DNA of 38,742 nt from an uncultured Candidatus Saccharibacteria bacterium (GTDB lineage: Bacteria > Patescibacteriota > Minisyncoccia > Phycocordibacterales > UBA9973). The notes beneath the pieces were generated by a model. The model saw nothing but the letters and a program-made list of their open reading frames with translations. It was not told the DNA's origin and did no database searches. The position numbers were made by a program, and so were the translations under genes. This document shows, piece after piece, positions 13,023 through 37,796 of this stretch (position 1 is its first letter; each line of letters starts with the position of its first letter). The stretch spans positions 1-38,742 of the forward strand of contig CAZDDY010000003.1 in the NCBI GenBank assembly GCA_964504455.1, read 5' to 3'.

Positions 13023-13024
13023 AA

Positions 13025-13067
13025 GGCAGCCCTGTCTTACGACGGTCTGCCTGTCAATCTTTTTTTG
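13025..13067. terminator. Hairpin plus T-run between the convergent murG and the 179-aa ORF
   Basis: ggcag...ctgcc stem with an inner gtc/gac pair and loop ttac, followed by tcttttttt. The stem is imperfect. Confidence 0.45.
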
Positions 13068-13070
13068 TTT

Positions 13071-13610
13071 TTAGTCACCATACACATGTGCTTGTGCAAA
13101 GTTGTGGCCTACTTTGACAATCCTAATGTAATCATTTTTCTGCTCGGGCATTGCATCAATAAAGATAATCATGCCTCTGCTTTTGTATAAAGGATTGGTA
13201 ACGATTGTCCACTGCTCCTTAGTTTCTGAATACGTAATGATGCAGTAGTAACCACCCTTTTCACTGGGCCAGAAAGCAAATTTTGCATTTTCATCTATCG
13301 GAAAAATATTTTCCCCGACAAAAGGCCTGGGTGCTTTCATTTCTGTTAACTGGCCCACCGCATACCCAATTCCTTTTTTAATTATTTTTATTTGCTGTCT
13401 CGGTTGTGGCTTTACACCAAGAAAAACAATGTAGCCATCACTTGCGTAATTTTCGTCTGTAACGGCTTCCATTCTATCTTTTTCGTAGTTGTAAACCAGT
13501 TTTGTAAAAAAACCCCCTCTTCTTGCCGGCCAAGTGGCTATCGGTTTCTTAAAATCATTTGGTTCAATGAGAGAGCCTGTTGTCATGTTTGGCCCCAAAA
13601 TAACAGTCAT
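13071..13610 (-). CDS. Hypothetical protein with an internal tandem duplication (two repeats of about 70 aa)
   Basis: Repeat A ...ATWPARRGGFFTKLVYNYEKDRMEAVTDENYASDGYIVFLGVKPQPRQQIKIIKKGIGYA aligns by eye with repeat B ...FAFWPSEKGGYYCIITYSETKEQWTIVTNPLYKSRGMIIFIDAMPEQKNDYIRIVKVGHNFA. Confidence 0.55.
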   Translation of the reverse strand: MTVILGPNMTTGSLIEPNDFKKPIATWPARRGGFFTKLVYNYEKDRMEAVTDENYASDGYIVFLGVKPQPRQQIKIIKKGIGYAVGQLTEMKAPRPFVGENIFPIDENAKFAFWPSEKGGYYCIITYSETKEQWTIVTNPLYKSRGMIIFIDAMPEQKNDYIRIVKVGHNFAQAHVYGD

Positions 13611-17870: not shown

Positions 17871-18944
17871 ATGGCAAAAGATTATTATGAAGTTTTGGGC
17901 GTAGCGAAAAACGCCAATCAAGAAGAAATAAAAAAGGCGTTTCGAAAACTTGCTCATCAATATCACCCCGATAAAAACAAGGGGGATGATAAAAAATTTA
18001 AAGAAGTAAACGAGGCGTATCAAATTCTTTCAGATGAAGGTAAGCGAGCACAGTATGATCGTTTTGGAAGTGGATTTGAACAAGCACAGGGCTTTGGTGG
18101 GTTTGGTCAGCAAGGTGGTTTTGACTTCAGTGGATTTCAACAAGGTGGATTTGATATGGGCGATTTAGGAGATATTTTCTCTGATTTTTTTGGTGGCACA
18201 CAACAAAGATCACACCGCCCGCAAAGAGGTAGGGATATTGCAACAGAATTAATAATCTCTTTTGAAGATTCAGTCTTTGGAACTGAAAGGGAGGTAGTTT
18301 TTACAAAAGTAGGTGAATGCGAAACATGTACAGGTAAAGGAGCAAAACCGGGAACAAAAAAAGAAACTTGTGGTACGTGTAATGGAAAAGGTCAGATACG
18401 AGAGAATAGACAAACAATCTTAGGAGCTATTTCTACAACTCGAATTTGTGAAAAGTGTGACGGCATTGGAGAAATTCCTAAGGAAGTGTGCGAAACATGT
18501 AAAGGGAAAGGAGTGTTGCGAAAGCAAGAAACAATCAAAGTATCTATCCCGGCTGGAATTCAAAATGGTGAAATGATTAGACTTGTTGGTAAGGGTGAAG
18601 GGATAAAAAATGGTACACCGGGAGACCTCTATGTGAAAATAAATACAGCACCACATAAAATATTCACACGTGAAGGGCAAAATCTTCGTATGACTCTTGA
18701 GATAAAGCTAACAGACGCACTTCTCGGTACAACATATACCATTGAAACAATTGAGGGTCCGCTTGCTGTAAAAATTCCAGAAGGAGTTTCTCCAAATGAA
18801 GTACTCCGGGTTAAAGAAAAAGGGGTGCCAGGTGGTAGAGGGAAGAGAGGTGACTTGCTTATAAGTATTAAAATAAAACTACCTTCAAAGCTCTCGAAAA
18901 AAGAAAAAGATGTTATTGAAACCCTAAAGACACTTGGACTCTAA
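17871..18944 (+). CDS. dnaJ: Molecular chaperone DnaJ
   Basis: J domain with HPD (YHPDKN), a G/F-rich linker and four CxxCxGxG repeats ([32 protein letters not shown]). Confidence 0.93.
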
Positions 18945-21635: not shown

Positions 21636-23144
21636 ATGGCAACAGCACAAAATATAATAGAAAACTTAAAAAGAGAGATTGCAAACCTTAAAGCTGATCC
21701 GAAACTCGAAAAAGTGGGTGTCGTTACAGAAGTGTTTGATGGGATAGTTCGCGTATCAGGACTTTCAAATATCAGATCATCTGAGATGGTTGTATTCCCA
21801 AATGGAGTTGAGGGTGTAGCATTAAACCTAGAAGCAGATTCTATCGGTGTAATTGTTCTCGGTCCGTATGTGGGAATTAAAGAAGGAGATGAAGTTAAAG
21901 CTACTGGAAAAATTCTAGACATCCCTGTTGGTGATGGAGACCTCGGAAGAGTTGTTAATGCACTTGGAATCGCAATTGATGGACGTGGAGATATTAAAAC
22001 AACAAAAACGTATCCTATTGAGCGAGTTGCTCCAGGAGTTGTAACACGACAGTCAGTCGACAAAGCAATGCAGACAGGAATCAAAGCAATTGATGCTCTT
22101 ATTCCTATCGGACGAGGTCAGCGTGAACTCATTATTGGTGACCGACAAACAGGAAAAACTGCGATTGCAATAGACACTATTTTGAACCAAAAAGACCAGA
22201 ACATGATTTGTGTGTACGTCTCAATTGGTCAAAAAGACTCAAAATTAAGAAAAATTGAAACACGACTCCGAGAAGGAGGAGCGATGGAATATACTGTGAT
22301 CGTTTCTGCTGGTGCCTCAGAACCTGCAGCACTTTCATATATTGCTCCGTATGCTGGAGTTGCAATTGCGGAATACTTTATGGACAAAGGTAAAGATGTA
22401 CTCATTGTCTACGATGACCTTTCAAAGCATGCTGTCGCATATCGAGAGATATCACTCCTGCTTCGTCGCCCTCCTGGTCGCGAAGCGTTTCCTGGAGATG
22501 TCTTTTATCTCCACTCAAGACTTCTCGAAAGAGCATGTCGCCGAAATCAAAAATATGGTGGTGGCTCTATCACTGCTCTTCCTATTATCGAAACACAAGC
22601 TGGAGACATTTCTGCGTACATTCCAACAAATGTTATTTCAATTACTGACGGACAAATTTTCTTGGAAACTGATCTTTTCTATAAAGGTATTCGTCCTGCG
22701 GTTAACGTTGGTAACTCTGTGTCTCGTGTAGGATCAGCTGCACAGATAAAAGCAATGAAAAAAGTTGCAGGAACACTCAAGCTTGACCTCGCACAATTCC
22801 GAGAACTTGAAGCATTTGCGCAATTCGGTTCAGATCTTGATGATGCAACAAAGCGTCAACTTGAACGTGGAAAAAGGGCCGTTGAAATGCTTAAGCAACT
22901 TCAGTATTCTCCGGTCCCTGTAGAAAAACAAGTTATTGGGCTCTACGCGCTCACTCGTGGATTTATGGATGATATTTCTATTTCAAAAATTAAAGCCTTT
23001 GAGACAACTCTCATTGAGTATGTTGAAACAAATGGTAAGCAATTTATTGATGAGGTGAAAACTTCTGGTATGTGGAGTGATGAAGGAGAAATAATTCTTA
23101 AAAAATTAATCGACGAATGTAAATCTTCATTTCAAAAAGAATAA
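21636..23144 (+). CDS. atpA: F0F1 ATP synthase subunit alpha
   Basis: GDRQTGKT Walker [45 protein letters not shown]. Confidence 0.95.
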
Positions 23145-23145
23145 T

Positions 23146-24027
23146 ATGGCTGTACAAGGTAAAGCAATAAAACAAAGAATAAAGAGTATTAAAAATACTA
23201 AAAAAATTACCAAAGCCATGGAGCTTATTGCTGCTTCAAAAATGAAGAAAGCTGTATCAAAAACCCTTGATGCAAGAGCATATGCTCATTATTCTTGGGA
23301 TGTGCTTCAATCACTTGAGTCAAGAGAAGTTCCACACCCATTATATGAGCAAAAAGATGGAGGAAGAGTGCTTATGGTGGTTATTACCTCAAACAGAGCG
23401 TTCTGTGGTGGGTATAATGCGCAAATTATTCGTTCTATTATTTCTTACATTAAAGAACACGCTGGAGAAACAATTAATTTCATTACTGTTGGAAAGAAAG
23501 GCGATACCGCACTTCGAAGGCTTGGGAAAAACATTGTTGCAACATTTGATGTTGGTGAATCTGTAACCCTCTCCGATGTAGTACCTGTCGGGGGAATCCT
23601 CATGGATGAATTTGAAGCAGACCATTACGACAAAGTTTTTATTGTATATACAGATTATGTGTCAGCACTTCTTCAAAGACCTGTCATCAAGCAAATTCTA
23701 CCTTTTTCAAAACAATCAGTTTTGGAAACAATTGAAGGATTGGGAGAAGAAAAAAACAGAAATAACAAAGCTGAATATTTGTTTGAACCAGGATATGAAA
23801 ATATTCTCAATGTCTTGATTAAAAAAATTTCTCGCATGCAAGTCTATCACACACTTCTTGAATCATTTGCATCTGAGCAATCAGCGCGAATGCTTGCTAT
23901 GAAGAATGCCTCAGATGCGGCAGGGGAGATGATAGAAGATCTGACACTTATGTTTAACAAGGCACGTCAAGCTGGAATTACACAAGAAATATCAGAAATT
24001 AGCGCCGGTATGGCAAGCGTAAGCTAA
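23146..24027 (+). CDS. atpG: F0F1 ATP synthase subunit gamma
   Basis: IKSIKNTKKITKAMELIAASKMKKA N-terminus and the C-terminal NKARQAGITQEISEI helix. Confidence 0.9.
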   Translation: MAVQGKAIKQRIKSIKNTKKITKAMELIAASKMKKAVSKTLDARAYAHYSWDVLQSLESREVPHPLYEQKDGGRVLMVVITSNRAFCGGYNAQIIRSIISYIKEHAGETINFITVGKKGDTALRRLGKNIVATFDVGESVTLSDVVPVGGILMDEFEADHYDKVFIVYTDYVSALLQRPVIKQILPFSKQSVLETIEGLGEEKNRNNKAEYLFEPGYENILNVLIKKISRMQVYHTLLESFASEQSARMLAMKNASDAAGEMIEDLTLMFNKARQAGITQEISEISAGMASVS

Positions 24028-24052
24028 AAATGATTAATTAATAATTTAGTAG

Positions 24053-25426
<1,374 letters not shown>

Positions 25427-27100: not shown

Positions 27101-28006
27101 ATGCAATATCAAATACTTTTGTTTTACAAATACGTAAAGATAAAAGAACCAAAAATCGAAATGGAACGCCAAAAAGCGGTGTGTGAAGCTTTGGGATTGA
27201 AAGGACGCATGATTATTGCAGAAGAGGGGATTAATGGTACTTTTGAGGGCACTTTAGAAAACACCGAGAAGTATGTTTCATGGATAAAGTCCGACAAACG
27301 ATTTAGTGACATTCATTGGAAAAAAAGTGTTGGAACTGGTGATGCGTTTCCCAAACTTTCAATAAAAGTACGCAAAGAAATTGTTTCGCTTCATTTAGAA
27401 GATAAATATGGTGAAGATATCGACCCGAAAAAATTAACTGGTATTCATTTATCTCCAGACAAACTAAGAAAATGGTATGAGACTGGTAAGGAATTTTACA
27501 TTGTGGATATGCGAAATGACTATGAACTCAATGTAGGTAAATTTGAAAATACAATATTTCCTGGCTTAAAAAATTTCAGAGATTTGAGAGACACCGTCCA
27601 CACCCTAAACCACCTAAAGGATAAACCTGTTTTGACTGTCTGTACTGGTGGTGTAAGATGCGAAAAAGCTTCAGGATTTTTAAAACGGGAAGGATTTAGG
27701 GAAGTCTATCAATTAGATGGCGGGATAGTATCATACATGGAAAAATACCCTGGTATTGATTTTAAGGGCTCTTTATATGTCTTTGATAAAAGAATTACCA
27801 TGCACTTTAATGACCCGCATACACATGAAGTAATCGGCGTATGCGAGATGTGCGGTGAAAAGTCTGAAAGATACATAAATTGCCAAAACTTAAACTGTCA
27901 TAGACATTTTATTGCTTGTGAAAAATGTGCACCGGACACTGAATCTCTTTTTTGTAATGACTCATGCAAAGAAATAAGTATAGAGGCTACCTCAACTAAA
28001 AAGTAG
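27101..28006 (+). CDS. trhO: Rhodanese-domain tRNA U34 hydroxylase TrhO (YceA/UPF0176 family)
   Basis: N-terminal ILLFYKY, the rhodanese active-site loop CTGGVRCEKAS and a C-terminal Cys cluster. Confidence 0.85.
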   Translation: MQYQILLFYKYVKIKEPKIEMERQKAVCEALGLKGRMIIAEEGINGTFEGTLENTEKYVSWIKSDKRFSDIHWKKSVGTGDAFPKLSIKVRKEIVSLHLEDKYGEDIDPKKLTGIHLSPDKLRKWYETGKEFYIVDMRNDYELNVGKFENTIFPGLKNFRDLRDTVHTLNHLKDKPVLTVCTGGVRCEKASGFLKREGFREVYQLDGGIVSYMEKYPGIDFKGSLYVFDKRITMHFNDPHTHEVIGVCEMCGEKSERYINCQNLNCHRHFIACEKCAPDTESLFCNDSCKEISIEATSTKK

Positions 28007-28933: not shown

Positions 28934-30175
28934 ATGGAAGAACATCAAGAATTAATTGCAAAAAAATACAGAAAAACGATTGCTATCACGGTAGTCGCGC
29001 TTTTGTGTTTTTTCACCGCCGGTATTTATATTGGCTACGCAAATAGACCTTGGATAGATAAAGTTACTGGCGTAAAAAATCAAGAAAATTCAAAAATACT
29101 TGGCACTGCTGATGCTGACTTTGACTCTTTCTGGAAAGTGTGGACACTTATTGATGAGAAATACCCAAGTGCAAAAGATGTAACAAGCCAGGACAGAATT
29201 TGGGGTGCAATAAAAGGACTCGTTTCGTCGCTTGAAGATCCATATAGCCAATTTTTTGATCCAGAGGAAGCACAGGAATTCGCTGAAGAAATTTCTGGAA
29301 GTTTTTCTGGTATTGGAGTTGAGATTGGCGTCAAAGACAAAATTCTTACTGTCATAAGTCCACTTAAGGACAGTCCTGGAGAAAAGGCTGGTCTAAAGCC
29401 GGGAGATAAAATATTAAAGATAGGTGATGTTGTCGCAACAGGATTAACAACTGATGAGGCAATAAAGTATATTAGAGGTCCTGAGGGTACGGCTGTCACT
29501 CTTACGATCTTGTCTGAGGGAACATCAGAACCAAAAGAAGTTGAAATCATTCGGGCAACAATACAGATACCAACCATAGACTCGCAAACAAAAAATGGTG
29601 TGTATGTTATTTCCTTGTATCAATTCAACGCAAACGCCACCACTCTAATGAGGAAAGAGTTTCAGAATTTTAAGAAAACTGGTCTTAAGAAACTTGTGCT
29701 TGATATGAGGGGTAATCCAGGCGGCTACTTAGATTCAGCGGTTGATATTACAAGTGAATTCTTGCCAGCTGGTGCAGTAATTGTAAGTGAGGATTTCGGT
29801 GGGAAACAAGACCCTGAAATTTATAGGAGTAAGGGGTCTCTCATGATTCCGAAGGATGTTTCGGTTGTTGTTTTAATTGATGGAGGTTCTGCATCAGCAT
29901 CTGAGATTCTAGCAGGTGCACTTGGAGAAAATCAGCGAGCAACAATAATTGGTACAAAAAGCTTTGGTAAAGGTTCTGTACAGGAGCTTGTTCCGGTAAC
30001 GGACGACACTGCGGTGAAAATAACAATAGCAAAGTGGCTCACGCCAAATGGAAACTCTATCTCTCAGAAGGGAATCACGCCACATATTGAAGTATCACTG
30101 ACAAAAGATGATATTGAAAACAAGCGTGACCCGCAACTAGACAGAGCGATTGAATTTCTTAATACAGGAAAATAA
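28934..30175 (+). CDS. ctpA: Carboxy-terminal processing protease (S41) with a PDZ domain
   Basis: An N-terminal anchor, PDZ GIGVEIG...GEKAGLKPGDKILKI, GNPGGYL, the catalytic SASASEILAGAL and the FGKGSVQ lysine. Confidence 0.88.
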   Translation: MEEHQELIAKKYRKTIAITVVALLCFFTAGIYIGYANRPWIDKVTGVKNQENSKILGTADADFDSFWKVWTLIDEKYPSAKDVTSQDRIWGAIKGLVSSLEDPYSQFFDPEEAQEFAEEISGSFSGIGVEIGVKDKILTVISPLKDSPGEKAGLKPGDKILKIGDVVATGLTTDEAIKYIRGPEGTAVTLTILSEGTSEPKEVEIIRATIQIPTIDSQTKNGVYVISLYQFNANATTLMRKEFQNFKKTGLKKLVLDMRGNPGGYLDSAVDITSEFLPAGAVIVSEDFGGKQDPEIYRSKGSLMIPKDVSVVVLIDGGSASASEILAGALGENQRATIIGTKSFGKGSVQELVPVTDDTAVKITIAKWLTPNGNSISQKGITPHIEVSLTKDDIENKRDPQLDRAIEFLNTGK

Positions 30176-30628
30176 ATGAAAGTACTACTTTTAAAACACG
30201 TAAAAGGAATTGGCCAACAGGGTGAGGTCAAGGAAGTCAAAGAAGGCTATGCTATGAATTTTCTCATTCCTCAAAAGCTTGCCGAACCTGCAACAACAAA
30301 TACTGTTAAGCAGTTAGAACTTTTAAAGAAAAACAAAGAGGTCCGATCCGAAATACACAAGGATTTGCTTTTAAAAGAGCTAGAACCTCTAGCTGATAAG
30401 GAGATAGAAATATATAAAAAAGTTAACTCACAAGGATCGCTATTTGGCGGCGTTACAATACAAGAAGTAAGAGACTCTATTGTAAGCCAACATAAAATTC
30501 ATGTACCGGAACACTTAATCCAACTACAAGAAGACATAAAACATACGGGGATATATGAAATCTTCATAGGTGACAAGAAAAAACTAGGCAAGGTTTTTCT
30601 TGTTCACTTGAAAGTTTTGGGTCAATAA
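30176..30628 (+). CDS. rplI: 50S ribosomal protein L9
   Basis: MKVLLLKHVKGIGQQGEVKEVKEGYAMNFLIPQKLA is a canonical L9 N-terminus. Confidence 0.9.
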   Translation: MKVLLLKHVKGIGQQGEVKEVKEGYAMNFLIPQKLAEPATTNTVKQLELLKKNKEVRSEIHKDLLLKELEPLADKEIEIYKKVNSQGSLFGGVTIQEVRDSIVSQHKIHVPEHLIQLQEDIKHTGIYEIFIGDKKKLGKVFLVHLKVLGQ

Positions 30629-30641
30629 AATACAAAAAAAC

Positions 30642-32321
30642 ATGGAAGATAAAATCTGCCAAAACTGCCAAACAAAATTTAACGTAAGCACAACTGACAT
30701 AGACTTTTACCAAAAAATTGACGTACCAACACCAAAACTTTGCCCGACTTGTAGAGTAAAAAGAAGACTTTCTTTCAGAAATGAAAGAACTCTGTATAAA
30801 CGAACTTGTGATTTGTGTAAAAAAGATGGAGTTTCTATATATCCTGCAAATACTCTTTTCCCGGTATTTTGCCACCACTGTTGGTGGAGTGATAAATGGG
30901 ATCCACAAGCGTATGCTCTCGACTTAGATCTTGGGAGACCATTTTTACAGCAATTTGAAGAACTAAAGAATAAAGTACCTAGGATAGCACTTTTGGTTAT
31001 AGATAGCGTTCAATCTGATTACACAAACAATGCTGGAGAAAATAAAAATTGTTATTTAGTATTTGCAGCTGAAAAGAATGAAGACTGTGCATATTCACGA
31101 TTACTCATGAATAGTAAATTCGTGCTTGATGCGTGTTCAGTATATGAATCAGAGTTATCTTATGAACTGACAGATTGTCGAAAATGCTACAAATGCATGT
31201 TTTCAGAACAATGTCAGGAATGTAGTGATGTATATTTTTCTTTCGACATGAGAAATTGTCAAAACTCAATTTTCTGTACTCATGGCAGAAATGTCAGTTA
31301 TCGGATATACAACAAGCCTGTCAGTAAGGAAGAATTTGAGAAGAAAAAAAATGAAATATTTTCTTCATATGAAAATCTTGAGAAAGCAAAAGAGGAATAT
31401 AAAAAACTGAGAGAAAATACCTTCGTACAATTTGCGATACAGACCAAATGTCAAAATGCTACAGGAGATTACATGTACAACTGTTTTGACGGAATAAGAC
31501 TTTTTGATGTTCGAAATGCAAAAGATTCAGCGTATATGGCTGATGCTGAAGATCCAATTGATTGCCAAGACTGTAATAATATTTATTTTAAACCCGAAAG
31601 ATGTTACCAAATAATGGGATCACTTCAAACAAATAACTCAAGAGTCGGCGTCTACATCATGTTTTGCAATAATGTCGATTACTCAGATAGTCTATACCAT
31701 TGCAGTGACTGTTTTGGGTGTGTTGGTTTGAACAAGAAAAATTATTGTATCCTCAATAAACAATATACGAAAGAAGAATATTTTCAATTACGCGAAAAAA
31801 TAATTTCTCAACTCAAATCAGAAGAAATTTACGGAGAATTTTTCCCTCCAAATCTTTCTCCGTTTGGATACAACGAAACACTCACACAAGAGTACTACCC
31901 ACTTAAAAAAGAAGAGGCTATCAACACGGGTTTTCGTTGGCAAGAAGAGACTACTGGCACCTACGGAAAAGAAACAATCACATCGCGGGACATACCTCAA
32001 TCAATCAAGGAAGTAACTGACGCTATCACCACAGAGAGTCTTGCATGTGTTGATTGTGGGAAGAACTACCGTATCACACACATGGAACTTGAATTTTATA
32101 GAAGAATGAACATACCTCTTCCGAGAAGAGATTTTGAGTGTCGTCACAAACTTCGTATGGCAAAACGTACACCAAGAGAACTTTGGACAAGAACCTGCAT
32201 GTGTACTCATGAAAATCATGGACATAATGCCGAGTGCATTAATTCTTTTGATACAGCATACGCCCCAGAAAGAGTAGAGCAAATATACTGCGAGGATTGT
32301 TACCAGAAAGAAGTAATATAA
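30642..32321 (+). CDS. Cys-rich zinc-ribbon-capped repeat protein, paralog 1 (559 aa), function unknown
   Basis: Uninterrupted ORF 13 nt after rplI, with 36 Cys by hand count. N-terminal CQNC..x..DFYQKIDVPTPKLCPTCRVKRRLSFRNERTLYKRTCDLCKK...FCHHCWWSDKWD. C-terminal CVDC..LEFYRRMNIPLPRR...RTCMC..HGH..YCEDCYQKEVI. Confidence 0.85.
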   Translation: MEDKICQNCQTKFNVSTTDIDFYQKIDVPTPKLCPTCRVKRRLSFRNERTLYKRTCDLCKKDGVSIYPANTLFPVFCHHCWWSDKWDPQAYALDLDLGRPFLQQFEELKNKVPRIALLVIDSVQSDYTNNAGENKNCYLVFAAEKNEDCAYSRLLMNSKFVLDACSVYESELSYELTDCRKCYKCMFSEQCQECSDVYFSFDMRNCQNSIFCTHGRNVSYRIYNKPVSKEEFEKKKNEIFSSYENLEKAKEEYKKLRENTFVQFAIQTKCQNATGDYMYNCFDGIRLFDVRNAKDSAYMADAEDPIDCQDCNNIYFKPERCYQIMGSLQTNNSRVGVYIMFCNNVDYSDSLYHCSDCFGCVGLNKKNYCILNKQYTKEEYFQLREKIISQLKSEEIYGEFFPPNLSPFGYNETLTQEYYPLKKEEAINTGFRWQEETTGTYGKETITSRDIPQSIKEVTDAITTESLACVDCGKNYRITHMELEFYRRMNIPLPRRDFECRHKLRMAKRTPRELWTRTCMCTHENHGHNAECINSFDTAYAPERVEQIYCEDCYQKEVI

Positions 32322-34028
32322 ATGGAAACCAAAACCTGCCAAAACTGCAAAAGCGAATTTATCATTGATCAAGATGATTTTGACTTCTATGCAAAAATCA
32401 ATGTTCCACCTCCAACATTTTGTCCGGAATGTAGAGCTATCAGAAGATTAACATTTAGAAATGAAAGGGTGTGGTACAGAAGAAATTGTGATGCAACAGG
32501 TAAACAAATACTTTCAATGTTTTCTCCTGATACACCATATACTGTGTATGAGGAAAAATATTGGAAAAGTGATGCATGGGATCCTATGGATTATGGTAAG
32601 GATTATATAGAATCTGAAACCTTTTTTGATCAGTTAGATAATTTATTTAAAAAAGTACCTCATCCTAACCTAATTCAAAAAAACAACGTAAACTGTGAAT
32701 ACTCAAACTATACACTCAATGGTAAGAACTGTTACTACTGTGCAAGTTTTGATGAAGTAGAGGATAGTGCATATTGCTTCACGAACAATACAAGAATTAA
32801 AAATTGCCTTGATTTGCATGTTACAGCTGAATCAGAATATTGTTATGAACTTATTGACTCAAAAAAATGTAGTCGAGTTTGCTTTGCGCAAAACTGTGAG
32901 TCATGTGTAAATTCAATTTTTCTATATGATTGTCGAAATTGTACAGACTGTTTTGGATGTATTGGGTTGCGAAATAAACAATATTATATTTTTAATGAAC
33001 AATATGACAAGGAAACATACAAGGAAAAAATAAAAGAACTGTGGGACGGTGGTTATACAAAACTGAAAGAATCTTTAAAAAAGTTTAATGAGTTAAAAAT
33101 TAAAGTTCCTCATAAATTTGCAAACATAGTTAATTCTTACAATGTAAGCGGAGATAATATAGCAAATGCTCGAAACTGTCACTTTTGCTACATAGCAAAA
33201 GAAAATATTGAAAATTGTAAGTACTGTTTTCGTGTATGGGAAAATACTAAAGATGGCTGGGATGCTTACTGTGCGTGGAAAGGATCAGAACTTTTTTATG
33301 AGGCACATAGTATAATTGGTCAAAGAATATTTTTTTCACTTTATGTTTGGGGAGGTCATGATGTTGAATACTCATACAATTGTTTTGACTGCAACAACAT
33401 ATTTGGTTGCGTCGGATTGAGAAATAAATCTTATTGTATTTTAAATAAGCAATACTCAAAAGAAGAATATTTAAAGCTGATTGAAAGAATTAAAGAAAAT
33501 ATGCGTATGGCAAAAGAGTACGGTGAATTTCTTCCATCAAGTGTGTCACCATTTGCATATAATGAAACTATTGCTCAAGACTACTTTCCACTATCAAAAA
33601 AAGAAATTATTGAAAAAGGATATAGATTTAAAGAAGCAGAAAAGAAAAATTATGCTATAAGCATGAACAGCAACAGTATTCCTGAAAATATCTCAACTAT
33701 TAACGAATCGATAGTAAATGAAGTACTGGCGTGTGAGCACAATGGAACATGCTCTGAACTTTGTGCTACTGCATTTAAAATTACAAAAGAAGAATTACAG
33801 TTTTATAGAAATTTAAATTTACCTTTGCCTAGACTTTGTCCAAGTTGTCGTCATTTTAGAAGAGTTAATTTAAAGAATCCTATGAAACTTTGGACAAGAA
33901 CATGCATGTGCCAGAATGGTAATCATGGACACGAAAGAACATGCCCTCAAAAATTTGAAACACCGTATGCTCCAGAAAGAAAGGAACTAATTTATTGTGA
34001 AAAATGTTACCAACAAGAGATACTCTAA
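32322..34028 (+). CDS. Cys-rich zinc-ribbon-capped repeat protein, paralog 2 (568 aa), function unknown
   Basis: The ATG abuts the paralog 1 stop (TAAATG). 38 Cys by hand count. It carries two copies of the CxxCxDCFGCxGLRNKxYxIxNxQYxKExY cap (nt 32931-33020 and 33381-33470). Confidence 0.85.
   Translation: METKTCQNCKSEFIIDQDDFDFYAKINVPPPTFCPECRAIRRLTFRNERVWYRRNCDATGKQILSMFSPDTPYTVYEEKYWKSDAWDPMDYGKDYIESETFFDQLDNLFKKVPHPNLIQKNNVNCEYSNYTLNGKNCYYCASFDEVEDSAYCFTNNTRIKNCLDLHVTAESEYCYELIDSKKCSRVCFAQNCESCVNSIFLYDCRNCTDCFGCIGLRNKQYYIFNEQYDKETYKEKIKELWDGGYTKLKESLKKFNELKIKVPHKFANIVNSYNVSGDNIANARNCHFCYIAKENIENCKYCFRVWENTKDGWDAYCAWKGSELFYEAHSIIGQRIFFSLYVWGGHDVEYSYNCFDCNNIFGCVGLRNKSYCILNKQYSKEEYLKLIERIKENMRMAKEYGEFLPSSVSPFAYNETIAQDYFPLSKKEIIEKGYRFKEAEKKNYAISMNSNSIPENISTINESIVNEVLACEHNGTCSELCATAFKITKEELQFYRNLNLPLPRLCPSCRHFRRVNLKNPMKLWTRTCMCQNGNHGHERTCPQKFETPYAPERKELIYCEKCYQQEIL
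32334..32435 (+). repeat. 102-nt near-identical tract, copy 1 (5' end of paralog 2)
   Basis: Identical to 34041-34142 except for 2 positions (agc/ggc and atc/gtc). Confidence 0.9.
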
Positions 34029-35741
34029 ATGAATATTAATACCTGCCAAAACTGCAAAGGCGAATTTGTCATTGATCAAGATGATTTTGACTTCTATGCA
34101 AAAATCAATGTTCCACCTCCAACATTTTGTCCGGAATGTAGAATGAAGCGTAGAATGAATTGGCGTAATGTTAGATCACTCTATAAACGAACTTGTGGCT
34201 TGTGTCAAAAGAACTTAATAAGCATGTATCCAGACGACGGAGCGCCAGTCTATTGTATTGAGTGTTGGAACAGTGATAAGTGGAATCGTTATGAGCATAA
34301 AATGCAATATGATTTTTCGGAAAATTTTTTTACACAACTCAATAAATTATTTAAAAAAAATCCACGACCATATAAGTACGCTTTTGGGAATTTAATCAAC
34401 TCCGAGTATGCAAACTATATAAAAGACAACAAAAACGTTTATTTATCATACTCAATTGTTGTTGGTGAAGATATTTTGTATTCAGAAAGTCTTGATAAAT
34501 CCAAAAATAGTATTGATTGTTACGCTGCTGAAAGCATTGATGGATGTTCTTATAATGTAGATTGTGAAGGCAATTACAATACACATTATGCTGTTAAATC
34601 AGAAAAGTGTATCGACTCTTACTTTATATATGACTGCGTTAATTGTAAAAATTGCTGTCTGAGTTCAAATTTAAGAAATCAATCTTATGTATTTAAAAAT
34701 CAAAAACTAGAAAAAGAAGAGTACGAAAAAGCTGTTTTAGAATTAAAACTTGAGACGTATTCAGGTTTTGAAAATACGAAAAAAATATTCGATAGCATGC
34801 TTGTTACTGACACCATACATAAGTACGCATATGTCTACTCTGTGGAAAATGCAACGGGAGATTACATACACAATGTAAAAAATGGAAAATATATTTTTAA
34901 TGCTACTGAATCTGAAAATGTCGCATATAGCATGAGAATATTGCAAAATGTCAAAGATTCTTATGATCTTCAGGGTGTAGGAGCCAATGTTGAGCTTGTC
35001 TATGATTCTGTAGCAGCAACACAAGACACATATAAGGATTTTTTCTGTTATATAACTATACAAGGTAGTCGTGAATGTGAATATTCAATACATTTGAGAA
35101 ATTGTGCAAATTGCTTTGGTTGTGTGGGTCTAGTAAATGCCCAATATTGTATTTTAAACATGCAATATACAGAAGAAGATTATTTTGTACTTGTAGAAAA
35201 AATTAAAAAGCACATGAATGAAACTCCTTATGTCGACAAGAAGGGAAGGGTATACAGATATGGCGAATTTTTTCCTTATGAAATGTCACCGTTTGGATAT
35301 AATGAAACAAATGCTTTCGATTTTTTCCCGATAACAGAAGAAGAGGCGCTAGAAAAAGGATATAATTGGACAAAGAAAGACAAGAGAGAGTATGAGGTCA
35401 CAATTGATTCAACCAATTTACCTGAAAGTATACACGATGTTAAAGAAGAGATAGTAAAAGAAATAATAAGTTGCCCTAGTGGTGGTGATCAAAGATACCA
35501 ATGCACAAGCGCATACCAAATAAGACCAGAAGAACTTGCATTTTATAGATCAAAAAAACTTCCACTTCCTAGAAGCTGTCCAAATTGTAGACATTACAAA
35601 AGATTAAAATACAGGAATCAGCCACGATTGTACAAAAGAGAGTGTAGTAATAGGTGTGGAAAAATATTTGAAACAACATACACCCCTGATCGTCCTGAAA
35701 AAGTATATTGTGAGGATTGTTATCAGAAAGAAGTATTGTAA
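34029..35741 (+). CDS. Cys-rich zinc-ribbon-capped repeat protein, paralog 3 (570 aa), function unknown
   Basis: The ATG abuts the paralog 2 stop (TAAATG). 30 Cys by hand count. Same terminal modules (CQNC...FCPECRMKRRMNWRN...CGLC...YCIECW and ...LPLPRSCPNCRHYKRLKYRN...YCEDCYQKEVL). Confidence 0.85.
   Translation: MNINTCQNCKGEFVIDQDDFDFYAKINVPPPTFCPECRMKRRMNWRNVRSLYKRTCGLCQKNLISMYPDDGAPVYCIECWNSDKWNRYEHKMQYDFSENFFTQLNKLFKKNPRPYKYAFGNLINSEYANYIKDNKNVYLSYSIVVGEDILYSESLDKSKNSIDCYAAESIDGCSYNVDCEGNYNTHYAVKSEKCIDSYFIYDCVNCKNCCLSSNLRNQSYVFKNQKLEKEEYEKAVLELKLETYSGFENTKKIFDSMLVTDTIHKYAYVYSVENATGDYIHNVKNGKYIFNATESENVAYSMRILQNVKDSYDLQGVGANVELVYDSVAATQDTYKDFFCYITIQGSRECEYSIHLRNCANCFGCVGLVNAQYCILNMQYTEEDYFVLVEKIKKHMNETPYVDKKGRVYRYGEFFPYEMSPFGYNETNAFDFFPITEEEALEKGYNWTKKDKREYEVTIDSTNLPESIHDVKEEIVKEIISCPSGGDQRYQCTSAYQIRPEELAFYRSKKLPLPRSCPNCRHYKRLKYRNQPRLYKRECSNRCGKIFETTYTPDRPEKVYCEDCYQKEVL
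34041..34142 (+). repeat. 102-nt near-identical tract, copy 2 (5' end of paralog 3)
   Basis: See copy 1. The flanking coding sequence diverges sharply immediately after ...gtccggaatgtaga. Confidence 0.9.
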
Positions 35742-35743
35742 TT

Positions 35744-37492
35744 ATGCAAAGTAAAACTCCAAAATTTGATACCTTGCTTGATGAAATACTTGGATCCCTC
35801 ATACCACACAGACGTACATGTGTATGGAAAGGCAAGCACGCATATTGTGAAGAAGAGTTTGAACTTGAAGTAGGGGATATAGAATTTCTTAAATTCTTGC
35901 GAGTACCTCCACCAAATTTCTGTCCTACCTGTAGAAGAATGAGAAGAATGGTTCATATGGGTACGATTCATTTATTCAAGCGTGCATGTGATGCTCCAGA
36001 ACATGATGAAATGATTATTTCAATATTCTCGAAAGAATGCCCGTTTCCTGTCTATGATTATAAATACTTTGTTTCTGAAGAATTTGACGCACTTGCTTTT
36101 GGTAAAAATTATAATGTAGCCGAGAGTCCCATGGAGCAGTTATGGGGGATGCGAAAAACTTTCCCTATGCCATCATTTTTAAATCGTGATCTTCTAAGTG
36201 TAAATAGTGAATATACAAATGGTGGTAGAGATCTGAAAAATGGATACTACACTTCTGGGTGTTTTCATTCTGAAGATATTTGGTACTCAAATCTTGTAAA
36301 CAAAAGCAAAAGTATTATGGATTCAAGATCAATAAATACTTCAGAGTATGTATACAATAGTGCATATTCTCGTAACTTATATAAATGTTCCTTCACATAC
36401 TTTAGCAAAGAATGTAGTGACAGTATTTTTTTATACGATTGTAGGAATTGCACAGACTGTTTTGGTTGTGTTAATTTGCGTAATAAAAAATATCATGTGT
36501 TCAACAAAGAACTTGCGAAAGAAGAATATGCAACGTTTATGAAAAATGTTTACCCACTTACGCGAGAAAAACTTAACGCATATGCTGAAGAATTTTGGAC
36601 GTTAGTACACAGACTGCCGATGAATGCCTCCCAAAATACCCAGACTGAAAACTCAACCGGTATACTACTGTCACGAAGCAAAAATGTATACGATGCCATT
36701 CATAGTGAGAACTCAGAAAATGTACGACATATTGATGGAGCTCTTTCACACAAAGATTCAATGGACTTTTTATTCTCTGGTGGACACTCAAATAATTTGT
36801 ACATGACCACTAACATTGGTTCGGAATCAAGCAAGGTGAAGTTTTCAATTTCATCAAAGTTTTGCCTTGAATCTGAATTTATTTTTAATTCCAAAAGCCT
36901 TACTAATTGCTTTATGTGTTTTGGACTCGAGAATAAATCTTTTTGTATTTTAAATCAACAATACACTCAAGAAGAATATTGGCCACTCGTTGATATAATA
37001 AAAACTGAGATGCTCAAAAGGGGAGAGTATGCTGATGGGCCAGGAATGGAATTTTCTGCCCAGGCATATAATTTCTCTTTAGCGAATATTGCATTTCCTT
37101 TATCTGAGGAGATCATACTCTCGCTTGGTGGGTATGTTGGAAAAGAGCAAGAATCAAATACAGACGGTATAGAAATTATTGACTCTGAAAATATTCCAGA
37201 GAACATTGATGAAGTAAGTGACAAAATAACGACCAAAGCTTTGCGATGTACTCTTAGTGGAAAACCTTTTAAGGTTATTCAAACTGAACTCGATTTTTAT
37301 CGTAGAATGAAACTACCACTTCCAAATATTCACCCAACTATTCGAACAGATAAAATGTATCACATTGGTGCAGTTGGTAAAAAATACAACACTACGTGTA
37401 ATAAGTGCAATACGGATATACTTTCTATTTTTGATCCAAAAGAAAATTATAATTTCTATTGCGAAAACTGTTATCAACAAGAAATTATTTAA
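35744..37492 (+). CDS. Divergent or degenerate member of the same family, paralog 4 (582 aa), function unknown
   Basis: The ATG at 35744 lies 2 nt after the paralog 3 stop (the track start at 35717 overlaps it). It keeps FLRVPPPNFCPTCRRMRRM, CRNCTDCFGCVNLRNKKYHVFN, NCFMCFGLENKSFCILNQQYTQEEY and YCENCYQQEII, but has lost many ligand cysteines (22 Cys). Confidence 0.8.
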   Translation: MQSKTPKFDTLLDEILGSLIPHRRTCVWKGKHAYCEEEFELEVGDIEFLKFLRVPPPNFCPTCRRMRRMVHMGTIHLFKRACDAPEHDEMIISIFSKECPFPVYDYKYFVSEEFDALAFGKNYNVAESPMEQLWGMRKTFPMPSFLNRDLLSVNSEYTNGGRDLKNGYYTSGCFHSEDIWYSNLVNKSKSIMDSRSINTSEYVYNSAYSRNLYKCSFTYFSKECSDSIFLYDCRNCTDCFGCVNLRNKKYHVFNKELAKEEYATFMKNVYPLTREKLNAYAEEFWTLVHRLPMNASQNTQTENSTGILLSRSKNVYDAIHSENSENVRHIDGALSHKDSMDFLFSGGHSNNLYMTTNIGSESSKVKFSISSKFCLESEFIFNSKSLTNCFMCFGLENKSFCILNQQYTQEEYWPLVDIIKTEMLKRGEYADGPGMEFSAQAYNFSLANIAFPLSEEIILSLGGYVGKEQESNTDGIEIIDSENIPENIDEVSDKITTKALRCTLSGKPFKVIQTELDFYRRMKLPLPNIHPTIRTDKMYHIGAVGKKYNTTCNKCNTDILSIFDPKENYNFYCENCYQQEII

Positions 37493-37495
37493 ACT

Positions 37496-37521
37496 AAAAA
37501 ATCCCCGGAAGGGGATTTTTT
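37496..37521. terminator. Bidirectional intrinsic terminator between paralog 4 and rpmA
   Basis: aaaaaatcccc-ggaa-ggggatttttt is a perfect 11-bp stem with A and T runs on both sides. Confidence 0.85.
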
Positions 37522-37523
37522 AG

Positions 37524-37796
37524 TTAGATAACATGTACCATTTTTCTGACTGTGGTTGTGCCATCGTATTTTTTCTTTCGAGAGTTTGTGAATTTTATTA
37601 TTCCAGACTTGAGAGCAAACAATGTGTAATCCTTTCCTGTTCCAACATTTTTTCCTGGAAGGATTTTTGTTCCTCTCTGTCTTACAATAATAGAACCAGC
37701 TTGTGCTTTTTCACCTGCGTAGAGCTTTGTCCCGAGATACTTCGGATTTGAGTCCCGCAGGTTTTTGGCGGTTCCGGCCGCTTTCCTATGTGCCAT
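37524..37796 (-). CDS. rpmA: 50S ribosomal protein L27
   Basis: [44 protein letters not shown]... is canonical L27, with no N-terminal propeptide. Confidence 0.93.

What the first reader, a model, noticed from the sequence alone, without database searches (positions are those of the whole stretch)
30642..37492. Four head-to-tail paralogs of a large cysteine-rich, zinc-ribbon-capped protein of unknown function, joined onto the rplI operon
Four consecutive ORFs of 559, 568, 570 and 582 aa fill 6.85 kb with essentially no spacers. The gap after rplI is 13 nt. The paralog 1/2 and 2/3 junctions are TAAATG, and paralog 4 starts 2 nt after the paralog 3 stop. The array ends at a perfect bidirectional terminator. 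It therefore looks like one translationally coupled unit co-transcribed with trhO-rsmI-ctp-rplI. All four proteins align end to end by eye and are very Cys-rich (hand counts 36, 38, 30 and 22 Cys). I see no signal peptide or TM helix, so they are probably cytoplasmic metal-binding proteins. I cannot place them in any characterised family from memory. They lack the CxxxCxxC radical-SAM motif, ferredoxin CxxCxxCxxxCP spacing and any nucleotide-binding loop. Two speculative readings (inference only): conserved caps around a variable repeat core are the layout expected of a recognition or scaffold protein family; and the linkage to tRNA/rRNA-modification and ribosomal genes, plus Arg/Lys-rich ribbons, could point to RNA or ribosome binding.
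Basis: partly seen in the sequence, partly recalled or inferred. Interest (0 to 1): 0.85.

Follow-up and report, generated by a model that had tools for sequence, protein, structure and literature searches.

The report
Zinc-capped cysteine-ladder beta-helix paralog array
Four adjacent genes encode old, individually conserved copies of a very large, unnamed protein family found only in ultra-small Patescibacteria; each copy is predicted to be a zinc-finger-capped pair of unusually tight beta-helices, and in other genomes the family sits next to orphan VirD4-like ATPases whose role is an open question.

Summary
Four intact co-directional ORFs (559/568/570/582 aa; 36/38/30/22 Cys) follow rplI and end at a perfect bidirectional terminator.

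They belong to a large unannotated family: 5,304 clusters at 50% identity, no Pfam, NCBIfam or PDB match for the core. Every named locus is Patescibacteria, Paceibacteria type.

Each protein reads: zinc-finger cap, core half A, core half B, conserved linker, zinc-finger cap. The two caps are homologous, and so are the two core halves.

The core is about 9 repeats of 12 residues per half. Cysteine and other small residues occupy only every third position. This predicts a tight 12-residue-per-coil beta-helix (AlphaFold pLDDT 92.5), so most core Cys are probably interior packing residues, not metal ligands.

The four copies are ancient paralogs, not an artefact.

The rplI linkage is lineage-specific (4 of 80 sources). 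The conserved partner is a soluble TrwB/VirD4-like ATPase, often inside the dnaK operon. It occurs in 27 of 79 family loci. In the reverse test, 66 of 80 ATPase loci carry the family. None lies in this window.

Function is untested. My best inference is cytoplasmic zinc-stabilised adaptor rods working with those ATPases.

The parts
27101..28006 (+). trhO-like gene (UPF0176 N-domain, rhodanese and rhodanese C-domain); first gene of the co-directional run
   Evidence: Pfam PF17773, PF00581 and PF12368
28008..28685 (+). rsmI-type methyltransferase gene
   Evidence: Pfam TP_methylase, 7.9e-31. The same gene lies upstream of ctp-rplI-family in L048, L064 and L075.
28934..30175 (+). ctp, C-terminal processing protease (S41 plus PDZ)
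   Evidence: Pfam PF03572, 1.5e-48
30176..30628 (+). rplI (ribosomal protein L9), immediately upstream of the array
   Evidence: Pfam L9_N and L9_C. A 13-nt gap separates it from paralog 1.
30642..32321 (+). Paralog 1 (W1), 559 aa, 36 Cys. Fingers 1, 2 and 4 have complete ligand sets; finger 3 has 3 Cys plus His.
   Evidence: Closest relative elsewhere is P0176 at 61%, which is a singleton gene after TrmB.
32322..34028 (+). Paralog 2 (W2), 568 aa, 38 Cys; the copy closest to the family consensus. Finger 2 is degenerate.
   Evidence: 77% identical to the L001/P0003 orthologue. AlphaFold models reach pLDDT 88.7 and 92.5.
32322..32564 (+). W2 N-terminal cap (residues 1-81): a treble-clef-like CxxC...CPxCR finger followed by a second, degenerate CxxC-x17-CxxC-type finger
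   Evidence: Sub-threshold PF13451 match. hhalign of N cap against C cap: probability 99.7%, E = 3e-26.
32658..33041 (+). W2 core half A (residues 113-240): about 9 coils of 12 residues, with Cys or small residues at every third position, followed by a helix
   Evidence: Autocorrelation, rows of 12, DSSP periodicity. hhalign of half A against half B: 99.9%, E = 2.6e-37.
32931..32960 (+). All-Cys coil of half A (C204, C207, C210, C213), a putative in-coil Cys4 metal site
   Evidence: These positions are 87%, 92%, 95% and 86% Cys across 266 family members. Metal binding is inferred, not shown.
33108..33491 (+). W2 core half B (residues 263-390), homologous to half A and ending in the knot C354/C357/C363/C372
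33507..33716 (+). W2 conserved linker with the motif YGEF(F/L)P..SPF(A/G)YNET..Q.YFPL
   Evidence: Near-invariant G401, P405, S409, Y413, N414 and E415
33717..34025 (+). W2 C-terminal cap (residues 466-568): a treble-clef-like finger followed by a CxC..HxH..C...CxxC finger
   Evidence: Sub-threshold PF23477 and TIGR04272 matches in the equivalent region of W3 and W4.
34029..35741 (+). Paralog 3 (W3), 570 aa, 30 Cys. All four fingers have complete ligand sets.
   Evidence: 52% identical to the gene immediately downstream of the W2 orthologue in L001, so the gene order is conserved. dN/dS is about 0.14 with dS saturated.
35744..37492 (+). Paralog 4 (W4), 582 aa, 22 Cys; the most divergent copy. 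Fingers 2 and 3 are degenerate, and the N-terminus carries a 26-residue insertion.
   Evidence: Closest relative is the L024 gene at 11749-13503, at 46%.
37492..37525 (.). Bidirectional intrinsic terminator hairpin shared with the convergent rpmA
   Evidence: 15-bp perfect stem, -21.6 kcal/mol, z = -5.8
37524..37796 (-). rpmA (ribosomal protein L27), convergent gene
   Evidence: Pfam PF01016, 1.4e-32

Best explanation
What it is (shown or strongly supported). The array holds four ancient, individually conserved paralogs of a Paceibacteria-specific family of soluble, probably cytoplasmic proteins. All share one pseudo-symmetric build: a two-finger zinc cap, a beta-helical core half A, a homologous core half B, a conserved linker, and a second two-finger zinc cap homologous to the first. 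Each core half is about 9 coils of 12 residues. Every third residue is Cys, Ser, Ala, Gly or Thr and is predicted to point into a very narrow interior. Each half ends in a coil whose inward positions are nearly all Cys. In this window the four genes are most likely transcribed with the rsmI-ctp-rplI housekeeping run and terminated at the shared hairpin.

How it most likely works (inferred). These are non-enzymatic, zinc-stabilised rigid rods that act as binding or adaptor modules. The conserved caps and the conserved helix face (repeat columns 3-8) would dock onto a common partner. The variable face (columns 10-2) would give each paralog its own specificity.

The best candidate partner is the family of soluble TrwB/VirD4/TraD-like ring ATPases. 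These flank family arrays in many Paceibacteria, frequently inside the grpE-dnaK-dnaJ operon, and one subtype carries the same CxxC-x17-CxxC finger. Under this model the family supplies specificity or scaffolding to an ATP-driven machine in the cytoplasm that handles nucleic acid or polypeptide.

The copies in this window are stand-alone members. No such ATPase lies within the 38.7 kb.
For: Family size and lack of annotation.

Architecture: hhalign gives cap against cap at 99.7% (E = 3e-26) and half against half at 99.9% (E = 2.6e-37).

Beta-helix core:
- Profile autocorrelation peaks at every multiple of 3, with the maximum at 12; a control region is flat.
- Cys is 34% at phase 0 and 0.0% at phases 1 and 2; small residues are 70% against 17%.
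- In the window's own four proteins, core Cys fall 49/7/12 by phase, P = 8e-11.
- The second AlphaFold model (pLDDT 92.5, pTM 0.91) shows short strands every 12 residues and E--E--E bridges.
- All top-50 PDB hits in both Foldseek runs are parallel beta-helices, though none is significant; the viral-library run also returns several beta-solenoid proteins.

Conserved and variable faces.

Ancient paralogy and constraint: each copy is 46-77% identical to a protein in another genome but only 30-40% to its neighbours. The W2-W3 order is kept in L001 and L081. dN/dS is about 0.14.

ATPase link:
- 46 ATPase genes were found in 27-28 of 79 family loci. Median distance to a family gene is 93 bp, and 45 of 46 are co-directional.
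- 23 of 124 arrays have the ATPase as immediate neighbour.
- In the reverse test, 66 of 80 loci fetched through the ATPase alone contain the family, 47 of them within 300 bp. Two layouts recur: DnaK-ATP-FAM-ATP-DnaJ and Sig70-ATP-ATP-FAM(n).
- Long ATPase forms carry PF23477/TIGR04272 above the curated cut-offs.
- 148 of 151 ATPases have no hydrophobic segment before the Walker A motif.
- Published background: about 5,713 VirD4-like genes in 2,918 Patescibacteria genomes, only 148 near virB4, and exaptation 'cannot be ruled out' (PMC12102498).

Cytoplasmic location: no signal peptide or TM segment.
Against: No experiment or expression data bears on any member.

The window itself has no ATPase, and 52 of 79 family loci show none within 10 kb. 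Many paralogs may therefore work without it.

Gene adjacency cannot separate partner, substrate and merely co-regulated genes. Part of the adjacency signal reflects shared ancestry among related genomes.

I could not inspect model coordinates. Helix handedness, the geometry of the Cys4 coil and how the caps pack are therefore inferred from sequence periodicity and DSSP strings only. The first, shallower model gave long strands rather than the 12-residue pattern.

The conserved linker motif and conserved polar ladders could be a catalytic or ligand site that I cannot recognise.

The zinc-finger matches in the window proteins are all below curated cut-offs.
Confidence: 0.45

Rival explanations
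1. RNA- or ribosome-binding factors. The Arg-rich treble-clef helices would bind rRNA, tRNA or the ribosome, and the proteins would act in translation or ribosome biogenesis alongside rplI, rpmA, rsmI and trhO.
For: In this window the array follows rplI by 13 nt and shares a terminator with rpmA. The rsmI-ctp-rplI-family block recurs in L048, L064 and L075. Arg residues R38, R41, R42, R46 and R54 after the second CxxC are nearly invariant. An HPF-like gene (3 loci) and L21 (8 loci) occur within 10 kb. Treble-clef fingers often bind nucleic acid (general knowledge).
Against: rplI adjacency occurs in only 4 of 80 sources. Other members sit in purL-purQ, RNR, CutA, TrmB and dnaK contexts. Translation genes are abundant everywhere in these small genomes. 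The N cap is net -2 and the whole protein is roughly neutral. No RNA-binding domain was detected.
Confidence: 0.12
2. Translocated cargo. The family would be the substrate set of the VirD4-like ATPases: effectors kept unfolded by DnaK/DnaJ and exported, possibly through the Patescibacteria type IV secretion system, into host cells. There they would fold around zinc.
For: The family is tightly and reciprocally adjacent to VirD4/TraD-like ATPases and to dnaK/dnaJ/grpE. It has many diversified paralogs with a variable surface. It lacks a Sec signal. The Patescibacteria T4SS lacks relaxases and is thought to have a non-conjugative role (PMC12102498).
Against: The ATPases lack the N-terminal membrane anchor of canonical coupling proteins: 148 of 151 have no hydrophobic segment, and the Walker A motif sits at about residue 66. 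Only 148 of 5,713 such genes lie near virB4. The family's C-terminus is a highly conserved structured zinc finger, not a disordered charged tail. Orthologues are conserved at fixed housekeeping positions rather than in variable islands. A protein with several zinc sites is a poor secretion substrate (general knowledge).
Confidence: 0.12
3. Metal or redox proteins linked to stress. The Cys-lined helices and fingers would buffer or store Zn, Cu or Fe, or carry Fe-S clusters. Alternatively they would act as zinc-dependent, redox-switched holdases of the DnaK regulon, in the manner of Hsp33 or the DnaJ zinc domain.
For: Cys content is 4-7% (22-38 per protein). Each half ends in all-Cys coils and CxxCxxCxxC knots. 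CutA1 divalent-ion-tolerance genes lie directly adjacent in 5 of 6 loci, at a median distance of 7 bp. The family is interleaved with grpE-dnaK-dnaJ in many loci.
Against: Most core Cys positions are only 20-80% conserved, exchange with Ser/Ala/Gly/Thr, and W4 keeps only 22 Cys. That is what packing residues look like, not ligands. There is no ferredoxin or radical-SAM spacing and no match to the DnaJ CXXCXGXG motif or Pfam model. The large, rigid, highly conserved architecture with a variable face is not what a simple metal buffer needs.
Confidence: 0.15
4. Assembly artefact, pseudogenes or a recently amplified selfish element.
For: The layout is tandem head-to-tail. The W1/W2 and W2/W3 junction regions share a 189-nt stretch at 85% identity.
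Against: The copies are only 30-40% identical at protein level and 60-85% over short DNA stretches. Each has a closer orthologue in another genome. All four are intact and full length. Synonymous sites are saturated while the proteins are conserved. The family is essentially absent from 2.9 million viral contigs and from PHROGs.
Confidence: 0.01

Closest known systems
Tenebrio molitor antifreeze protein (TmAFP, PDB 1EZG): a 12-residue-per-coil Cys-rich right-handed beta-helix
   Same: Both have a 12-residue repeat with a small or Cys residue at every third position. In TmAFP these are the inward-pointing residues. Both are very Cys-rich. TmAFP is the best PDB hit of the core-half profile. TmAFP's Cys spacing of 6 fits the same period-3 phase (alignment). 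Its 7-coil isoform has 16 Cys (PMC6572240).
   Different: This is analogy, not homology: E = 0.12 with high composition bias, and TmAFP is not among the Foldseek top 50. TmAFP is a small secreted protein held together by one disulfide across each coil, and it presents a Thr-x-Thr ice-binding ladder. The family here has no signal peptide, no i/i+6 Cys pair except in the last coil, and no TxT ladder. It has two helices per chain plus four zinc fingers.
Left-handed beta-helix (hexapeptide-repeat) enzymes such as LpxD, LpxA, GlmU and gamma-carbonic anhydrase; also pentapeptide-repeat proteins
   Same: All are parallel beta-solenoids. These are the only class of structure that Foldseek returns for the core.
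   Different: E is 0.005 or worse and TM is 0.21 or lower. The known repeats have 18 or 20 residues per coil, against 12 here. No Pfam Hexapep or Pentapeptide match was found. No acyltransferase or carbonic anhydrase active-site residues were identified.
Pfam zf_Tbcl (PF13451) and zf_Tbcl_2 (PF23477); NCBIfam TIGR04272 (CxxC-x17-CxxC domain)
   Same: The caps have the same CxxC...CxxC spacing and give the only database hits for the window proteins. The phage 'zinc-ribbon domain' models superpose on them at 0.5 A over 37-40 residues. The neighbouring ATPase carries the domain above the curated cut-offs.
   Different: All window hits fall below the curated cut-offs (15.9-26.1 bits against 24-27; 18 bits against 36). 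These Pfam and NCBIfam domains have no known function, so membership would explain nothing about the roughly 400-residue core.
Orphan VirD4-like coupling-protein (T4CP) homologues of Patescibacteria (PMC12102498)
   Same: The recurrent neighbour matches TrwB_AAD_bind, TraG-D_C, T4SS-DNA_transf and DUF87 above Pfam cut-offs. It corresponds to the abundant T4CP homologues encoded away from virB4 that the paper reports.
   Different: These are partner genes, not the finding itself. They lack the N-terminal transmembrane anchor. They score far below NCBIfam TraD/VirD4 cut-offs. They are embedded in dnaK or sigma-factor operons. None is present in this window.

Membership tests
zf_Tbcl (PF13451) treble-clef finger | Match to the Pfam model at or above the gathering score of 24 bits | tested here: not met
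   15.9, 18.5 and 19.3 bits for W1-W3; no hit for W4
zf_Tbcl (PF13451) treble-clef finger | Two CxxC pairs about 24 residues apart, with a helix after the second pair | tested here: met
   C6/C9 and C34/C37 are 94-96% conserved, and a helix spans residues 35-43 in both models. The C-cap equivalent aligns to it at 99.4%.
zf_Tbcl_2 (PF23477) / TIGR04272 CxxC-x17-CxxC | Match at or above the curated cut-off (27 bits for Pfam, 36 bits for NCBIfam) | tested here: not met
   Best scores are 26.1 bits (W3) and 19.7 bits (W4) for Pfam, and 18.1-18.6 bits for TIGR04272. The ATPase neighbour does pass, at 38.9 and 41.1 bits.
TmAFP-type 12-residue beta-helix | 12-residue repeat with an inward small or Cys residue every third position | tested here: met
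   Autocorrelation maximum at 12 with peaks at all multiples of 3. Cys is 34% against 0% by phase. DSSP periodicity in the second model.
TmAFP-type 12-residue beta-helix | One disulfide across each coil (a Cys pair at i and i+6 in every repeat) | tested here: not met
   Only the last coil of each half has Cys on opposite sides. The other coils pair Cys with Ser, Leu or Val.
TmAFP-type 12-residue beta-helix | Secreted protein with a Thr-x-Thr ice-binding ladder | tested here: not met
   No signal peptide. The outward ladders are Lys/Glu-Asn/Asp and aromatic residues, not TxT.
TmAFP-type 12-residue beta-helix | Detectable sequence or structure homology | tested here: not met
   hmmsearch E = 0.12 with a bias of 12.3 out of 15.8 bits. 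TmAFP is absent from the Foldseek top 50.
Hexapeptide-repeat left-handed beta-helix | 18-residue coils built from the [LIV]-[GAED]-x2-[STAV]-x repeat; significant structural match | tested here: not met
   The period is 12, not 18. No Pfam Hexapep hit. Foldseek E is 0.005 or worse and TM 0.21 or lower.
4Fe-4S ferredoxin / radical SAM | CxxCxxCxxxCP or CxxxCxxC motif | tested here: not met
   A regular-expression search finds neither motif in W1-W4. Only CxxCxxCxxC occurs, in W2 and W4. No Pfam hit.
DnaJ zinc-finger domain (PF00684) | CxxCxGxG repeats and a Pfam match | tested here: not met
   No CxxCxGxG motif and no PF00684 hit. The true DnaJ neighbours do match, at 2.5e-14.
Type IV secretion substrate or effector | Genetic linkage to a membrane-anchored coupling protein and a T4SS channel (VirB4/VirB6) | tested here: not met
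   The linked ATPases lack a TM anchor. I saw no virB4-like gene in the loci, but I did not search for one specifically. The literature reports that only 148 of 5,713 T4CP homologues lie near virB4.
Type IV secretion substrate or effector | Translocation into a recipient cell | not testable with these tools
   This needs secretome or host-fraction proteomics.
Known anti-phage defence systems (PADLOC) or phage proteins (PHROGs) | Match to a defence or phage protein model | tested here: not met
   No PADLOC hit. No meaningful PHROG hit. One marginal fragment in 2.9 million viral contigs.

The most novel reading that the evidence does not exclude
The family, the two or three subtypes of soluble VirD4/TrwB-like ring ATPases that flank it, and DnaK/DnaJ/GrpE together form a previously unrecognised cytoplasmic machine found across Paceibacteria. 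This would be the real job of the 'orphan T4CPs'. Within it, the family would represent a new metalloprotein architecture: a Cys-lined 12-residue-per-coil beta-helix whose last coil binds a metal with four inward-pointing thiolates. Paralog-specific faces would select different nucleic-acid or protein clients.
Probability: 0.25. Interest if true: 0.85.

Novelty: categorically new. Interest (0 to 1): 0.72.

Why it matters
Paceibacteria have some of the smallest bacterial genomes, yet they keep many copies of this roughly 570-residue protein. I found up to 9 in one 17-kb stretch, at least 4-7 in several single genomes, and 5,304 clusters at 50% identity overall. That much coding capacity, under purifying selection and embedded in housekeeping and heat-shock operons, implies a function central to their biology. 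It is currently invisible to annotation.

The finding also gives a concrete, testable handle on an open question raised in 2025: what thousands of VirD4-like ATPase genes, encoded far from any secretion system, do in Patescibacteria.

Structurally, it predicts a beta-helix type so far known only from beetle antifreeze proteins. Here it would occur in a cytoplasmic, zinc-capped, duplicated form, which is useful for fold evolution and protein design. A Pfam or DUF entry could be built directly from the alignments made here.

Tried and rejected
**Database searches**
- Pfam, NCBIfam, PADLOC and PHROGs scans of all four proteins gave only sub-threshold zinc-finger hits.
- PDB sequence searches used three profiles: the 4-sequence alignment, the 55-sequence alignment and the core-half alignment. 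They returned only LIM or MAT1 zinc fingers and TmAFP at non-significant E-values.
- Foldseek on two high-confidence models against PDB and BFVD gave nothing at E of 0.001 or better.
- A viral-contig scan returned one marginal fragment.
- Seven literature searches found no description of the family.

**Ideas considered and rejected**
- Assembly artefact or recent duplication: rejected on the 30-40% identities and the closer orthologues elsewhere.
- Mobile element or homing gene: the genes do sit inside many different operons, but each paralog has a conserved orthologue and position, and no nuclease motif is present.
- Defence island: no PADLOC hit, and the core-genome context is conserved.
- Disulfide-stapled TmAFP homologue: no i/i+6 Cys pairs.
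- DNA-mimic pentapeptide-repeat analogue: the period is 12 and the charge is neutral.

**Not done**
I could not measure handedness, Cys-Cys distances or cap packing.
- I did not use the remaining two large homologue searches. The family itself would have saturated their output.

Full report
**1.

The window carries four intact co-directional ORFs at 30642-32321, 32322-34028, 34029-35741 and 35744-37492. They lie 13 nt after rplI. The junctions are TAAATG, TAAATG and a 2-nt gap.

The array ends at a perfect 15-bp hairpin (37492-37525; -21.6 kcal/mol; z = -5.8). The hairpin overlaps the stop codons of both the array and the convergent rpmA.

The Cys counts of 36/38/30/22 are exact. The four proteins align end to end at 30-40% identity. 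They lack radical-SAM, ferredoxin and P-loop motifs and have no signal peptide or TM segment.

One qualification: near-zero spacers are the norm in this genome, with a median same-strand gap of 3.5 nt. Co-transcription with rsmI-ctp-rplI is plausible but was not demonstrated. A 248-nt gap before ctp could hold a promoter.

**2. Not an artefact, and not recent**

Each paralog has a closer relative in another genome than within the array. W1 is 61% identical to P0176, W2 77% to L001, W3 52% to the next gene in L001, and W4 46% to a gene in L024. Within the array the figure is 30-40%.

The W2-W3 gene order is kept in L001 and L081, while the W1 orthologue is a singleton elsewhere. DNA-level similarity between copies is 60-85% over short stretches only. 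Synonymous sites between orthologues are saturated while the proteins are conserved; dN/dS is about 0.14 for W3.

These are therefore ancient paralogs under purifying selection, brought together in this lineage.

**3. A very large, unannotated family**

A word-indexed search saturated at 7,890 hits, and every named hit was 'hypothetical protein' from Patescibacteria. An exhaustive profile search of 1.84 billion representatives found 5,304 clusters at 50% identity (2,305 at E of 1e-30 or better). Nearly all are 550-600 aa and match the profile end to end.

None of Pfam, NCBIfam, PADLOC or PHROGs covers the core. Only sub-threshold zinc-finger hits appear at the termini. PDB sequence searches with three profiles found nothing significant. 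The family is essentially absent from viral contigs. Seven literature searches found no description.

All 79 genome loci come from Parcubacteria/Paceibacteria-type lineages by record title. Some are third-party assemblies (labelled TPA in GenBank) titled 'uncultured Candidatus Saccharibacteria'. I did not verify those labels and they may be generic.

**4. Architecture**

Profile-profile comparison shows that the N cap (residues 1-81) and the C cap (466-564) are homologous: 99.7%, E = 3e-26. Each cap is a treble-clef-like finger followed by a CxxC-x17-CxxC-like finger. Core half A (113-240) and core half B (263-390) are also homologous: 99.9%, E = 2.6e-37.

Between half B and the C cap lies a near-invariant linker motif, YGEFFP..SPFAYNET.AQ.YFPL.

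Completeness of the zinc ligand sets differs by paralog:
- Fingers 1 and 4 are complete in all four copies.
- Finger 2 is complete only in W1 and W3, and in about 29% of the family.
- Finger 3 is complete in W2 and W3, partial in W1 and lost in W4.

**5. The core is a predicted 12-residue-per-coil beta-helix with a Cys/Ser interior**

Profile autocorrelation in half A peaks at every multiple of 3, with its maximum at 12. Half B shows the same pattern more weakly, and a control region is flat.

When the sequence is laid out in rows of 12, Cys occurs only at every third column. In half A it is 34% at that phase against 0.0% at the other two. Small residues (C/S/A/G/T) are 70% against 17%. In the window's own four proteins, core Cys fall 49/7/12 by phase, P = 8e-11.

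The rows also show in-register ladders: Lys/Glu then Asn/Asp at columns 4-5, and aromatics at columns 7-8. The last full coil has all four inward positions as Cys (C204, C207, C210, C213; 86-95% conserved). The matching knot in half B is C354/C357/C363/C372.

The first AlphaFold model (55 sequences; pLDDT 88.7) drew long strands. The deeper one (138 sequences; pLDDT 92.5, pTM 0.91, all five models at 85.7 or above) shows short strands every 12 residues and 'E--E--E' bridges.

Foldseek returns parallel beta-helices for the core: every one of the top 50 in both PDB runs (LpxD, GlmU, gamma-carbonic anhydrase and similar), and hexapeptide-repeat, pentapeptide-repeat and tailspike proteins in the viral library. 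None is significant: E is 0.005 or worse and TM is 0.21 or lower. The caps superpose on phage zinc ribbons at 0.5 A.

The only known protein with this 12-residue, inward-every-third pattern is the beetle antifreeze protein TmAFP. It is also the best PDB hit of the core-half profile, although non-significant at E = 0.12. TmAFP's features were taken from PMC6572240 and from general knowledge.

This family is an analogue of TmAFP, not a relative. It lacks the per-coil disulfide pairs, the TxT ladder and a signal peptide.

The consequence is that most core Cys are best read as interior packing residues. Probable metal sites are the four fingers plus one Cys4 coil per half, giving up to about 6-7 Zn per chain. 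This is inferred, and I could not inspect coordinates.

One face of the helix is conserved (columns 3-8; 1.1-2.2 bits). The opposite face is variable (columns 10-2; 2.5-3.4 bits).

**6. Genomic context across genomes**

In 79 loci from named genomes the family forms 124 runs of 1-7 genes, or up to 9 in one 17-kb locus if small intervening ORFs are ignored. Of 197 family genes, 195 are co-directional within their locus.

The genes sit inside many different housekeeping operons: purL-FAM-purQ, rplI-FAM, grpE-FAM-dnaK, CutA-FAM, near RNR, and after TrmB. The rplI context of this window recurs in only three other loci.

One neighbour stands out, a roughly 500-aa P-loop ATPase that matches TrwB_AAD_bind, TraG-D_C, T4SS-DNA_transf and DUF87:
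- There are 46 copies in 27-28 loci.
- Median distance to a family gene is 93 bp.
- 45 of 46 are on the same strand.

Longer forms of the ATPase add a CxxC-x17-CxxC finger, above the curated cut-offs, and a long Pro-rich tail. Of 151 ATPases, 148 have no hydrophobic segment before the Walker A motif, which sits at about residue 66. They are therefore soluble, unlike canonical coupling proteins.

For the reciprocal test I fetched 80 metagenomic loci through the ATPase alone. Of these, 66 contain family genes within 3 kb of an ATPase, 47 of them within 300 bp. Most of the rest are short contigs.

Two layouts recur:
- (GrpE-FAM)-DnaK-ATP-FAM(1-4)-ATP-DnaJ(-FAM)
- Sig70 (region 4 plus HARE-HTH)-ATP-ATP-FAM(1-6 or more)

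A 2025 survey reported 5,713 VirD4-like genes in 2,918 Patescibacteria genomes. Only 148 were near virB4, and the authors noted that exaptation 'cannot be ruled out' (PMC12102498). The present window has no such ATPase. Its dnaJ lies 12 kb upstream of the array.

**7. Interpretation**

Shown:
- the gene structure;
- ancient paralogy;
- the size of the family and its lack of annotation;
- the internal duplications;
- the period-3 and period-12 Cys pattern;
- the reciprocal ATPase and dnaK-operon linkage across genomes.

Inferred:
- the beta-helix fold, from periodicity, DSSP and the class of Foldseek hits;
- the zinc sites;
- cytoplasmic location;
- a non-enzymatic adaptor or scaffold role with the ring ATPases.

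Rival readings remain open. They are an RNA or ribosome factor, translocated cargo of the ATPases, and a metal, redox or holdase role in the DnaK regulon. I rank them below the adaptor model for the reasons given under each. An artefact is excluded.

**8. Verdict**

It is partly wrong on the ribosomal linkage and on treating all the Cys as metal ligands.

The family matches no known family or system and predicts an unusual fold. It also ties into an open question about orphan VirD4-like ATPases, so I rate it novel and of high interest. The function remains untested.

Noticed in passing
L004:14144-16450, L035:1509-3590, L012:8576-11584, L013:12166-14586 and similar loci: Long forms of the VirD4/TrwB-like ATPase (620-1,000 aa) carry a CxxC-x17-CxxC finger directly after the ATPase domain. 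This is followed by a Pro-rich, probably disordered tail of several hundred residues that ends in a conserved E(I/V)PEDVL(R/K)K(I/V)LE motif.
   Followed up: partly
L130, L137, L139, L145, L146, L150, L151 and L166 (metagenome loci); L017, L018, L047, L057 and L068: A sigma-70 region-4 protein with a HARE-HTH domain regularly precedes two consecutive ATPase paralogs and then a family array. This looks like a dedicated regulator or operon head.
   Followed up: partly
L016, L023, L030 and L038: A family gene is inserted between purL and purQ of an otherwise ordinary purine-biosynthesis operon (purL-FAM-purQ-purF-purN-purD).
   Followed up: no
L001, L015, L017, L024, L048 and L066: A CutA1 (divalent-ion tolerance) gene lies directly upstream of or next to family genes, at a median distance of 7 bp. 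This is a possible link to metal handling.
   Followed up: no
L027, L034, L035, L043, L052, L055 and L076: An unannotated multi-pass membrane protein of about 200 aa (no Pfam or NCBIfam hit) recurs just downstream of the ATP-DnaJ-(FAM) block. It could be a membrane component of the same module.
   Followed up: no
It could reflect local gene conversion or unusually strong constraint on the caps.
   Followed up: no
window:37890-38330: A 146-aa ORF with no Pfam hit has an N-terminal hydrophobic segment and a C-terminal ...YYYLDC...W.....AE.AGY..S..C motif. From memory this resembles the small 'sunset'/Ada-type metal-binding domain common in CPR. I did not test this.
   Followed up: no
window:16541-16612 (-) and window:19064-19135 (+): Two tRNA genes flank the dnaJ region (dnaJ at 17871-18944). 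An F1 ATP synthase alpha-gamma-beta block lies at 21636-25426.
   Followed up: partly
L080:5844-5966 (IMG/VR contig IMGVR_UViG_3300025030_000857): The only viral-collection hit is a 41-residue fragment of the family at the very edge of a 6-kb contig. I did not check whether that contig is really viral.
   Followed up: no
L081:10382-10930; L084:3058-3681 and L084:10212-10469: Loci of close relatives carry a DsbB gene a few genes downstream of the W2/W3 orthologues. Near the W1 orthologue there is a Y1 transposase and a YafQ-like toxin pair.
   Followed up: no
locus table (for example L005, L006, L009, L014): Many third-party assemblies (labelled TPA in GenBank) that hold this Paceibacteria-type family are titled 'uncultured Candidatus Saccharibacteria bacterium', and one 2-kb contig is titled Gammaproteobacteria. 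These labels look generic or mis-binned and should not be used to infer the family's taxonomic range.
   Followed up: no
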